Assembly (NCBI GenBank): GCA_021798985.1
Contig: JAJZBI010000006.1
Location: forward strand, 74,716-138,715
DNA: 64,000 bases
DNA from: Actinomycetes bacterium
GTDB lineage: Bacteria; Actinomycetota; Acidimicrobiia; Acidimicrobiales; Bog-793
Direction of reading: 5' to 3'
Positions 15,852 through 16,379 of the stretch are shown here, piece after piece. Numbering within the stretch: the stretch's first letter is position 1; each line of letters begins with the position of its first letter. The notes beneath the pieces were generated by a model that saw only the letters and a list, made by a program, of their open reading frames with translations, made no database searches and was not told the origin of the DNA. The position numbers and the translations under genes were made by a program.

Positions 15852-16379
15852 TCACGACCTCGGACCCGGGCCGATGATGTCGGCGCCGAGCGCCAGGCAT
15901 TCGGCACAGATCGCCGCGCCCGATCCGCTCGCCATGTCCGTCACCTGGGCGCGGCGCTTGCCACAGAAGCTGCAGACCTGCTCGACCTCCTCAGATGGCA
16001 CCGCGCGGGCGGGTGGCGCGGCGATCGCCGCGGCGCGCCCTTCGAGCATCGTGCCGATCGCGGCGATGCACTGGCCGCAGATGTAGCGGTTCGGTCCGGC
16101 GATGAGGTGGCTGACCTCGTGCTGGGCGCGCCCGCAGAACGAGCAGCGTCCCGAGTCGTGCTCGGCGGCAGGTGGGGAAGTGGGCGCATCGCCACCCGGG
16201 TGGGTGAGCCCAGCCATGCCGAGCGCTTCGGCGATCTCTTCGGGTGTGGCCCCGGAGCGCTCGAGTGCTTCGACGGCCCGCTGCAACGCGGCCTCGGCTG
16301 CCGCGAGGCGCTGGCGCGCCGCGGCGAGTGCCTCGTGGCGTGCGCTGGCCTCGGCGAGCAGGGCCGGGTCGAGCACCAT
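15852..16379 (-). CDS. Protein with an N-terminal helical region and two ClpX-type C4 zinc-finger domains, no AAA+ module
   Basis: [27 protein letters not shown] and [27 protein letters not shown] both match the ClpX N-terminal zinc-binding domain pattern C-x2-C-x18-19-C-x2-C. Confidence 0.75.
   Translation of the reverse strand: [175 protein letters not shown]

What the first reader, a model, noticed from the sequence alone, without database searches (positions are those of the whole stretch)
15852..16379. Stand-alone protein with two ClpX N-terminal zinc-binding domains and no ATPase
Seen in sequence: the 175-aa ORF has an Ala/Glu-rich helical N-terminus, a Pro-rich linker, then [27 protein letters not shown] and [27 protein letters not shown].

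Established knowledge: this C4 module is the ClpX N-domain, which dimerises and docks adaptors and substrates. It is normally followed by the AAA+ body.

Inference: a tandem copy without an ATPase could mimic a ClpX N-domain dimer, acting as a decoy, anti-adaptor or adaptor. It could equally be an unrelated zinc-ribbon regulator.
Basis: partly seen in the sequence, partly recalled or inferred. Interest (0 to 1): 0.6.

Follow-up and report, generated by a model that had tools for sequence, protein, structure and literature searches.

The report
Motorless tandem ClpX zinc-finger protein
This is a real gene for a small protein with two copies of the docking domain of the ClpX protein-unfolding machine but no motor; it descends from an unstudied family of likely DNA-binding regulators, has lost the DNA-binding part, and probably acts as a decoy or docking piece.

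Summary
The minus-strand ORF 15852..16379 (175 aa) has two ClpX-type C4 zinc-binding domains (ZBDs): Pfam PF06689, E 6.7e-26, two stretches. It has no ATPase, and the genome keeps a normal ClpX elsewhere.

It is not an orphan. An exhaustive HMMER search gave 177 representative clusters at E<=1e-30. Their shared architecture is a long helix, a sigma-4/KorA-type HTH, then two ZBDs. Nine of 17 longer relatives also carry a ClpC-type N-domain (Clp_N) between the HTH and the ZBDs. These proteins therefore join a DNA-binding head to the client-docking domains of Clp unfoldases.

The nearest studied parallel is mycobacterial ClpC2, a motorless ClpC1 N-domain repressor and sponge. No ZBD counterpart turned up in six literature searches.

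The window's clade differs from the family. The HTH recognition helix is gone and conserved basic residues are now acidic, while both ZBDs stay nearly invariant. In two species of one genus the gene follows a GAF-PP2C phosphatase in a kinase/REC-RsbW-like/PP2C cluster.

Best reading (0.4): a non-DNA-binding look-alike of the ClpX N-domain that works as a sponge or docking module. Function is untested. An earlier scan note had already called stand-alone ZBD genes common.

The parts
15852..16379 (-). Gene for the 175-aa motorless tandem-ZBD protein (stop codon 15852-15854)
   Evidence: ORF. PF06689 E 6.7e-26 in two stretches. 177 representative relatives at E<=1e-30.
16257..16367 (-). Residues 5-41: long amphipathic helix, family-conserved; probable dimerising or packing helix
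   Evidence: AF2 helix 5-41 with block pLDDT 92-97. Conserved hydrophobic stripe at A11, A14, L18, A21, A28, F/Y32, A35, V/I36, L39. Only generic long-helix structural matches, Z about 5.
16209..16253 (-). Residues 43-57: remnant of the HTH. The second helix is kept; the recognition helix that follows it is lost.
   Evidence: The family consensus G-[AG]-S-L-R-E-I-A..A-L-G-L-S-H-Q-R-V-H-Q-I-V reads [22 protein letters not shown] here. No HTH family matches the window protein at E<=0.01, against 65 of 103 relatives for Sigma70_r4. AF2 gives no helix after residue 52.
16149..16208 (-). Residues 58-77: Pro/Ala-rich, acidic, fast-evolving linker
   Evidence: pLDDT 51-72. Identity to clade members is 15/20, 7/20 and 6/20. 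Relatives have an Arg-rich stretch here.
16041..16148 (-). Residues 78-113: ZBD1 (C79, C82, C101, C104), keeping the L-I-A-G-P..Y-I-C hairpin of ClpX
   Evidence: Pfam best stretch 78-113. PDB 2ds7_A E 1.5e-8. Cys columns: 102/103, 103/103, 103/103, 103/103. Aligns to own ClpX at 19 of 52 identities over residues 78-129.
15978..16040 (-). Residues 114-134: inter-ZBD linker, conserved within the clade
   Evidence: Identity to clade members P0002-P0004 is 19/21, 20/21 and 16/21. pLDDT 77-87 with short strands.
15870..15977 (-). Residues 135-170: ZBD2 (C136, C139, C158, C161), keeping the C-terminal helix motif of ClpX
   Evidence: Second Pfam stretch. 18 of 34 identical to own ClpX. Cys columns 103/103, 103/103, 103/103, 102/102; F138 102/103; I168 92/102.
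16380..16424 (-). 45-nt spacer between the PP2C stop and the start codon. No Shine-Dalgarno. A conserved TAACCT (16386-16391) lies 6 nt before the ATG, which may be a -10 box of a leaderless transcript.
   Evidence: Sequence. The stretch AGTCCATAACCTTCGG is identical in the sister species. The E. coli-type consensus scan found no promoter or terminator. Reading TAACCT as a TANNNT -10 box is my inference from recalled knowledge of actinobacterial promoters.
16425..17723 (-). Upstream neighbour: GAF + SpoIIE/PP2C phosphatase (432 aa)
   Evidence: PF07228 E 6.8e-44 and GAF_2 E 4.7e-7. An 87% identical copy precedes the ortholog's start in G002.
17727..18653 (-). REC + HATPase_c_2 (RsbW-like kinase) protein, 308 aa
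   Evidence: PF00072 E 8.5e-23 and PF13581 E 7.8e-12.
18643..23625 (-). Hybrid histidine kinase (1660 aa) with HAMP repeats, GAF, HisKA, HATPase_c and REC
   Evidence: Pfam: HAMP in 9 stretches, HAMP_2 in 10.

Best explanation
Shown: the ORF is a real, conserved gene. Its product has a long N-terminal helix, a wrecked HTH, a floppy linker, and two ClpX-type Cys4 zinc-binding domains joined by a conserved 21-residue linker. It is a derived member of an unnamed family whose standard form is helix + sigma-4/KorA-type HTH + 2 ZBDs. Some members add a ClpC-type N-domain or two more ZBDs.

Inferred: the family couples a DNA-binding head to motorless copies of the client- and adaptor-docking domains of Clp unfoldases. 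This is the logic shown experimentally for mycobacterial ClpC2, a ClpC1 N-domain homologue that represses its own gene, leaves the DNA when a ligand binds, and soaks up that ligand.

In the window's genus the recognition helix and the basic residues are gone, so DNA binding is most likely lost. What selection keeps is the helix and the tandem ZBD unit. I therefore read this protein as a pure sponge or docking module. The two ZBDs probably pack like a ClpX N-domain dimer and present the same hydrophobic pocket, the equivalents of E. coli ClpX F16 and I46. The protein would then bind short docking motifs that would otherwise go to ClpX, or hold a partner.

The gene follows a GAF-PP2C phosphatase in a kinase/REC-RsbW-like/PP2C cluster, which makes that phosphatase the first candidate partner. 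There is a precedent: the PP2C-fold domain of the adaptor RssB docks on the ClpX ZBD dimer.
For: - **Domains and zinc ligands.**: all eight Cys columns are kept in at least 102 of 103 relatives.
- **Family size.** 18,632 hits at E<=1e-3, which the profile's ZBD part also draws from ordinary ClpX proteins; 177 at E<=1e-30. Most of the best 150 are 160-220 aa and cover the whole profile.
- **HTH in the family.** 85 of 103 full-length members carry S-[HY]-Q-[RL]-[VI]-[HQ]-Q. Sigma70_r4 matches 65 of 103 and HTH_23 64 of 103 at E<=0.01. The profile hits WhiG sigma region 4, KorA and a transposase PAI domain in the PDB, weakly.
- **Loss in the window's clade.** R37 (87/103), H40 (73/103) and R47 (90/103) are E, E and E here, and S-H-Q-R-V-H-Q-I-V is A-G-L-T-H-P-G-G. 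Net charge is -5 to -13 in the clade against 0 to +16 in seven ordinary members.
- **Selection on the ZBDs.** ZBD1 is 36/36, 34/36 and 33/36 identical to P0002-P0004, and ZBD2 36/36, 32/36 and 33/36. The pre-ZBD linker is only 15/20, 7/20 and 6/20.
- **Pocket residues.** F81 99/103, F138 102/103 and I168 92/102. They correspond to E. coli F16 and I46, the hydrophobic side pocket used by trigger factor, SspB, RssB and lambda O (PMC7804408, passages read).
- **ZBD1-ZBD2 packing.** Weak support, 0.33 against a best control of 0.01. AF2 gives pTM 0.58 with a confident inter-ZBD linker.
- **Clp_N hybrids.** 9 of 17 longer relatives have HTH + Clp_N + 2 ZBDs. P0075 residues 100-234 match a chain of 6ucr (depositor's name: negative regulator of genetic competence ClpC/MecB) at E 1.8e-27 and chains named ClpC1 at E 3.1e-27 and weaker.
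- **ClpC2 precedent.** PMC10030653 (abstract and passages) and PMC13345244 (abstract and passages).
- **RssB C-domain on the ZBD dimer.** PMC7226468, section 3.2 read.
- **Synteny.** The order kinase, REC-RsbW-like, PP2C, then the start of the ZBD gene recurs in the sister species G002.
Against: - No binding partner, zinc content, oligomer state or expression has been measured.
- The pocket residues may be conserved only because they hold the fold or the domain pair together.
- The ZBD1-ZBD2 pass is weak and could come from the model's memory of the solved ZBD homodimer.
- The link to the PP2C is seen in only two species of one genus. PP2C homologues at 42% and 41% identity in G003 and G050 are followed by unrelated genes. 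None of the other family loci examined has a PP2C nearby: 126 ORFs in six loci and 9 ORFs in L016.
- A conserved TAACCT 6 nt before the ATG suggests the gene may have its own promoter.
- The sister-species protein P0005 has Tyr in place of the first Cys of ZBD1, so ZBD1 may be dispensable or decaying there.
- The family's N-terminal head shows no detectable sequence similarity to the ClpC2 N-domain. The parallel with ClpC2 is one of design, not descent.
Confidence: 0.4

Rival explanations
1. It is a generic zinc-ribbon protein-protein or scaffold module with no connection to ClpX clients. The ZBD fold is reused as a small stable dimerising unit, and the family are ordinary transcription factors whose ZBDs only help them oligomerise.
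For: The ZBD is a constitutive dimer in ClpX (PMC7226468, section 3.2). No conserved neighbour points to proteolysis. Cyanobacterial sigma-70 factors also carry zf-C4_ClpX as an accessory domain (PMC11119718, one passage read).
Against: Nine of 17 longer relatives add the ClpC-type N-domain next to the ZBDs. That is hard to explain if the ZBDs were only a dimerising device. In the window's clade the DNA-binding part is lost yet the ZBDs stay nearly invariant.
Confidence: 0.25
2. It is a component or target of the neighbouring partner-switching-type module. The RsbW-like kinase and the PP2C would phosphorylate and dephosphorylate it, or it would be bound in place of a STAS protein or sigma factor.
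For: The gene sits directly after the REC-HATPase_c_2 and GAF-PP2C genes in two species. The cluster has no STAS gene of its own: the genome has 10 STAS matches, and the only one on the window's own contig lies about 41 kb away. The N-terminal part derives from a sigma-4-like HTH.
Against: No STAS-like fold or known phospho-acceptor motif is present. The linkage is not seen outside the genus. The gene may have its own promoter.
Confidence: 0.12
3. It is a thiol or zinc redox switch. The two Cys4 sites release zinc on oxidation or metal stress and change the protein's interactions.
For: There are eight conserved zinc-ligand cysteines. The DNA occurs in runs labelled mine drainage and sediment metagenomes. 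The idea of Cys4-zinc redox switches is recalled, not taken from a call.
Against: Nothing specific supports it. ClpX ZBDs are not known to me as redox sensors, and there are no redox genes in the cluster.
Confidence: 0.08
4. It is a poison subunit: one ZBD pairs with a ZBD of ClpX itself and disturbs the hexamer's N-domain dimers.
For: ZBD2 is 53% identical to the genome's own ClpX ZBD (18 of 34), and ZBD1 aligns at 19 of 52.
Against: Two ZBDs on one chain with a conserved linker and weak support for pairing with each other favour an internal pair.
Confidence: 0.07
5. It is a decaying remnant of a regulator with no present function.
For: The HTH is destroyed. The sister-species copy has lost one zinc ligand. 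No RNA evidence was available.
Against: The frame is intact in five clade members, four of 175 aa and one of 168 aa. The ZBDs and inter-ZBD linker are far better conserved than the linker before them.
Confidence: 0.06

Closest known systems
N-terminal zinc-binding domain of ClpX (Pfam PF06689; PDB 1OVX, 2DS5-2DS8)
   Same: Same fold and the same C4 ligands in both copies. The equivalents of the hydrophobic-pocket residues F16 and I46 are kept. 37-53% identity to the genome's own ClpX ZBD.
   Different: Two copies sit on one chain instead of forming a homodimer. There is no AAA+ body or ClpP-docking part. ZBD1 keeps the hairpin motif and ZBD2 keeps the helix motif, so the two copies have diverged in complementary ways.
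ClpC2 of mycobacteria and Streptomyces (motorless ClpC1 N-domain homologue; autorepressor, antibiotic sponge and phosphoarginine sensor; PMC10030653, PMC13345244)
   Same: The design is the same: a dimerising or DNA-binding head joined to an unfoldase's docking domain without the motor. Nine relatives of the window protein literally contain a ClpC-type N-domain beside the ZBDs.
   Different: The docking domain here is the ClpX type, not the ClpC type. The N-terminal heads show no detectable sequence similarity. The window protein has lost its HTH, so at most the sponge half of the ClpC2 mechanism could apply. Nothing has been tested.
RssB-ClpX docking and the Ira anti-adaptors of enterobacteria
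   Same: RssB's PP2C-fold C-domain docks on the ZBD dimer (PMC7226468, section 3.2). Here a tandem ZBD gene follows a PP2C gene. Anti-adaptors likewise act by competing for docking surfaces.
   Different: There is no sequence relation to IraD, IraM or IraP. The one IraP row is a generic 40-residue helix match at Z 4.7. The PP2C here has a GAF domain, not a REC domain, and no contact has been shown.
Cyanobacterial sigma-70 factors with a zf-C4_ClpX accessory domain (PMC11119718)
   Same: They combine sigma-type HTH regions with a ClpX ZBD on one chain.
   Different: Those are full sigma factors with regions 2-4. This family has only a region-4-like HTH, and the window protein has not even that.

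Membership tests
Pfam PF06689 zf-C4_ClpX (domain) | Score above the gathering cut-off | tested here: met
   90.3 bits against 27, in two stretches.
Pfam PF06689 zf-C4_ClpX (domain) | Four zinc-ligand cysteines per domain (CxxC ... CxxC) | tested here: met
   C79/82/101/104 and C136/139/158/161. The columns are kept in at least 102 of 103 relatives. Zinc binding itself was not measured.
Pfam PF06689 zf-C4_ClpX (domain) | ZBD fold | tested here: met
   Foldseek 2ds6_B: TM 0.90 on the target, rmsd 0.7 over 39 columns. ZBD pLDDT 86-97.
Pfam PF06689 zf-C4_ClpX (domain) | Dimer of two ZBDs | tested here: inconclusive
   Complex prediction gave weak support, 0.33 against a best control of 0.01. The pass may reflect the solved homodimer.
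ClpX unfoldase (NCBIfam TIGR00382 / NF003745) | AAA+ ATPase body and full-length score | tested here: not met
   51.2 and 57.9 bits against cut-offs of 370.75 and 359. Only profile positions 4-47 match, and the protein has 175 aa.
Unnamed family: helix + HTH + 2 ZBDs (databases call it 'ClpX C4-type zinc finger protein') | Full-length similarity, including the N-terminal helix | tested here: met
   36% identity over residues 1-169 to P0022, E 2e-27. The profile covers the whole length in most of the best 150 hits.
Unnamed family: helix + HTH + 2 ZBDs (databases call it 'ClpX C4-type zinc finger protein') | HTH recognition helix S-H-Q-R-V-H-Q-I-V and flanking basic residues | tested here: not met
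   Present in 85 of 103 members and replaced here by A-G-L-T-H-P-G-G. R37, H40 and R47 are all E. No HTH Pfam match at E<=0.01.
ClpC2-like motorless N-domain regulators | Clp_N (ClpC1 N-domain-like) ligand-binding domain | tested here: not met
   No Clp_N match in the window protein. It is present in 9 of 17 longer relatives.
ClpC2-like motorless N-domain regulators | Autorepression, and release from DNA or sponge action on ligand binding | not testable with these tools
   Needs EMSA, reporter and binding assays.
Lar restriction-alleviation protein (PF14354 / TIGR03655) | Score above the cut-off | tested here: not met
   18.8 bits against 28.6, and 16.4 against 39.6.

The most novel reading that the evidence does not exclude
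The helix-HTH-2xZBD proteins, together with their HTH-Clp_N-2xZBD and 4xZBD variants, form a general and so far undescribed class of 'unfoldase N-domain sensors'. They would be the ClpX-side counterpart of ClpC2. On this reading they read out, or buffer, the pool of molecules that dock on the ClpX N-domain: adaptors, degron-bearing clients, or natural products aimed at that domain. The window's HTH-less form would be a dedicated sponge, and a stress-signalling phosphatase cluster would set its level or its partner.
Probability: 0.2. Interest if true: 0.8.

Novelty: new variant of a known kind. Interest (0 to 1): 0.57.

Why it matters
The ClpX N-domain decides which adaptor-delivered clients are degraded, and no natural free-standing competitor for it has been characterised. 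A motorless tandem ZBD would be a simple way to tune ClpXP specificity without touching the essential motor.

The relatives that combine an HTH, a ClpC-type N-domain and ZBDs suggest that bacteria repeatedly wire the docking domains of their unfoldases to gene regulation. ClpC2 shows this for ClpC1. If that holds here, the family gives a direct handle on what the ClpX N-domain recognises in Actinomycetota, where adaptors of ClpX are, to my recollection, hardly known. It would also suggest ready-made binding modules for targeted-degradation tools that use ZBD-binding peptides (PMC12373786).

Tried and rejected
- **Word-index protein search.** It found only 20 relatives and made the protein look rare. 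The exhaustive search corrected this.
- **Genome-contig scan.** It returned mostly ClpX genes. L028 and L038, which seemed to cover the whole query, hold ORFs of 427 and 426 aa at the match, the length of ClpX, and were set aside without a family scan. Only L016 was a true family member.
- **Conserved neighbours.** None was found in seven family loci. In L130 my ORF filter missed the family gene itself, so only its neighbours were scanned.
- **Fold of the N-terminal part.** VIA-align against 48,161 chains gave only generic long-helix rows at Z about 5. Sequence searches of the PDB with the N-terminal 75 residues of P0022 and with the family profile gave a 'CAP repeat' entry and weak HTH hits. 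The ClpC2 N-domain was not among them.
- **Fused longer forms.** None at E<=1e-8 among proteins of 308-2000 aa. The tool itself calls this weak evidence.
- **Metagenome scan for close relatives with context.** Three short contigs at 36-39% identity, of no use for synteny.
- **Sequencing runs.** No RNA holder was listed. The one RNA run laid gave only short unlike fragments. Contigs of two other DNA runs were fragments. This says nothing on expression or synteny.
- **Consensus promoter and terminator scan.** Nothing found.
- **PP2C synteny beyond the genus.** The 58% homologue in G008 lies 72 nt from a contig end, so its downstream gene is unknown.
- **Literature.** Searches found no study of a motorless ClpX-ZBD protein. 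Supplements were not consulted.

Full report
**Observation.** The minus-strand ORF 15852..16379 encodes 175 residues with the two quoted Cys motifs. Pfam finds zf-C4_ClpX twice: E 6.7e-26, 90.3 bits against a cut-off of 27. NCBIfam's ClpX models match only their first ~45 positions and fall far below their cut-offs, at 57.9 against 359 bits. The genome (3.76 Mb, 71 contigs, 96.9% complete) has three PF06689 matches: one in a normal 424-aa ClpX on another contig and two in this ORF. The start is fixed. The frame opens three codons upstream, and relatives begin at the same column.

**Structure.** With a 103-sequence alignment, AF2 gives mean pLDDT 87.3 and pTM 0.58.
- Helix 5-41 and short helix 46-52.
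- No helix across 53-77, where pLDDT is 51-76.
- ZBD1 at about 78-113, a fairly confident linker (77-87), and ZBD2 at about 135-170 (the shallower model agrees).
- Foldseek hits only solved ClpX ZBD chains (2ds6_B: TM 0.90 on the target, rmsd 0.7, 39 columns). The PDB sequence search hits 2ds7_A at E 1.5e-8.
- The N-terminal helix gives only generic matches (Z about 5).

**It belongs to a family.** The word-index search found 20 relatives. HMMER over 1.84 billion representatives with a 13-sequence profile found 18,632 hits at E<=1e-3, which the profile's ZBD part also draws from ordinary ClpX proteins, and 177 at E<=1e-30. Most of the best 150 are 160-220 aa and match end to end. Their N-termini share a long helix followed by G-[AG]-S-L-R-E-I-A..A-L-G-L-S-H-Q-R-V-H-Q-I-V.
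- 85 of 103 full-length members carry the S-H-Q-R-V-H-Q core.
- Sigma70_r4 matches 65 of 103 and HTH_23 64 of 103 at E<=0.01.
- The profile weakly hits WhiG region 4, KorA and a transposase PAI domain in the PDB.
- A motif-based sort of all 169 proteins in hand gave 95 HTH+2ZBD, 7 HTH+4ZBD, 16 HTH+1ZBD (not checked for truncation), 26 2ZBD without the strict motif, and 9 4ZBD without an HTH.
- The ESM Atlas lists look-alike clusters auto-named 'ClpX C4-type zinc finger protein', with Actinomycetota, Myxococcota and Acidobacteriota as the commonest phyla. Phylum is known for only 6, 7 and 51 of their members.
- In an even sample of 401 genomes of the phylum, full-length members (E<1e-50) occur in 7, including the window's own genome and one unpublished genome, G207. 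Five of the other six belong to one family, f41.
- Among 61 close relatives searched with the single protein, only G035 (40% identity) and a fragment in the sister species G002 appear.

**The key relatives.** Of 17 longer or odd relatives scanned, 9 carry Clp_N (PF02861, E 2.3e-11 to 3.1e-30) between the HTH and the two ZBDs. In P0075, residues 100-234 match solved ClpC-type N-domains at E 1.8e-27 (best chain 6ucr_A; chains named ClpC1 from E 3.1e-27) and solved ClpC2 C-domains at E 1e-10. The family thus joins one DNA-binding head to the docking domains of both Clp unfoldases, with no motor.

**The nearest studied case is ClpC2.** It is a motorless ClpC1 N-domain homologue that dimerises, represses its own promoter, is released by cyclomarin A, and then acts as a sponge (PMC10030653, abstract and passages). 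A 2026 preprint reports that phosphoarginine disrupts its oligomers and relieves repression (PMC13345244, abstract and passages). Neither text mentions a ClpX or zinc-finger counterpart. Six literature searches found none either.

**What is special about the window's clade** (P0001-P0005, 60-100% identity).
- The recognition helix is replaced by A-G-L-T-H-P-G-G.
- The conserved R37, H40 and R47 are all Glu, and the Arg-rich stretch after the HTH is an acidic Pro-rich linker.
- Net charge is -5 to -13, against 0 to +16 for seven ordinary members.
- Within the clade the ZBDs are nearly invariant (ZBD1 36, 34 and 33 of 36; ZBD2 36, 32 and 33 of 36 for P0002-P0004). So is the inter-ZBD linker (19, 20 and 16 of 21).
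- The pre-ZBD linker drifts (15, 7 and 6 of 20).

This is the pattern of a working protein that has given up DNA binding. Against that, the sister-species copy P0005 has Tyr for the first Cys of ZBD1.

**Do the ZBDs look like a ClpX docking unit?**
- All eight Cys columns are kept in at least 102 of 103 members.
- F81, F138 and I168 are kept in 99/103, 102/103 and 92/102. [quoted passage not shown]
- ZBD1 keeps the hairpin motif and ZBD2 the helix motif of ClpX.
- Folding ZBD1 and ZBD2 as separate chains gave weak support: 0.33 against a best control of 0.01, runs agreeing in at least 98% of contacts, partner pLDDT 70. The mark was reached by 116 of 157 solved complexes and 2 of 215 mismatched pairs. 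At 0.60 or under, only 18 of the 157 and both mismatches passed. A like complex is solved, so the pass may be from memory.

**Context.** All on the minus strand:
- a 1660-aa hybrid kinase with HAMP repeats (18643..23625);
- a REC + HATPase_c_2 protein (17727..18653);
- a GAF + SpoIIE/PP2C phosphatase (16425..17723);
- 45 nt later, this gene;
- 69 nt after that, an aldose epimerase.

The sister species G002 has the same kinase, 308-aa REC protein, 87% identical PP2C, and then the start of the ZBD gene at a contig end. The spacer is conserved. It includes TAACCT 6 nt before the ATG, with no Shine-Dalgarno, which may mark an own leaderless promoter; that is my inference.

Outside the genus the link fails. 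PP2C homologues in G003 and G050 are followed by other genes, and no family locus elsewhere has a PP2C. The cluster has no STAS gene; the genome has ten elsewhere. One precedent makes the pairing worth testing: the PP2C-fold C-domain of RssB docks on the ClpX ZBD dimer (PMC7226468, section 3.2).

**Verdict.** The new points are:
- the family itself;
- the Clp_N hybrids that tie the family to Clp recognition;
- the ClpC2 parallel;
- the loss of the HTH in this lineage.

Both agree with what I found. A third note (e1-4745292) calls the organism an uncultured Acidimicrobiia lineage; I did not test that.

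Noticed in passing
P0075, P0083, P0088, P0091, P0112, P0120, P0129, P0151, P0163 (database proteins): Proteins of 297-414 aa that combine the same helix-HTH head, a full ClpC-type N-domain (Clp_N) and two ClpX ZBDs. Both unfoldase docking domains sit on one motorless chain.
   Followed up: partly
P0093, P0099, P0103, P0108, P0110, P0111, P0113, P0119, P0164: Proteins of about 206-295 aa with four ZBD-like CxxC pairs of motifs and no HTH. Short tandem-ZBD-only frames of about 100 aa are also frequent in genome family f41.
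   Followed up: no
window 18643..23625 (-): 1660-aa hybrid histidine kinase with 9-10 HAMP repeats, then GAF, HisKA, HATPase_c and REC. It overlaps the next gene's start by 11 nt.
   Followed up: no
window 10378..13323 (+): 981-aa ORF rich in Ser, Thr, Gly and Asn with no Pfam match at E<=0.001. It may be a secreted or surface protein.
   Followed up: no
L096 1..137 (G002 contig C87) and P0005: The sister-species ortholog has Tyr instead of the first zinc-ligand Cys of ZBD1, and its PP2C reads on a few codons further, which shortens the spacer.
   Followed up: partly
window 26154..27752 (-) and 27866..29836 (+): Two divergently placed arylsulfotransferase (ASST) family genes.
   Followed up: no
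window about 57491..57736 (-): A STAS-domain match inside a 386-aa frame, the only STAS match on the window's own contig, about 41 kb from the kinase/PP2C cluster.
   Followed up: no
PDB 8vd6_A: An entry called 'CAP repeat', with five tandem HTH-like repeats, is the best PDB match to the family's HTH (E 2.1e-21 with the profile). I did not find out what this entry is.
   Followed up: no
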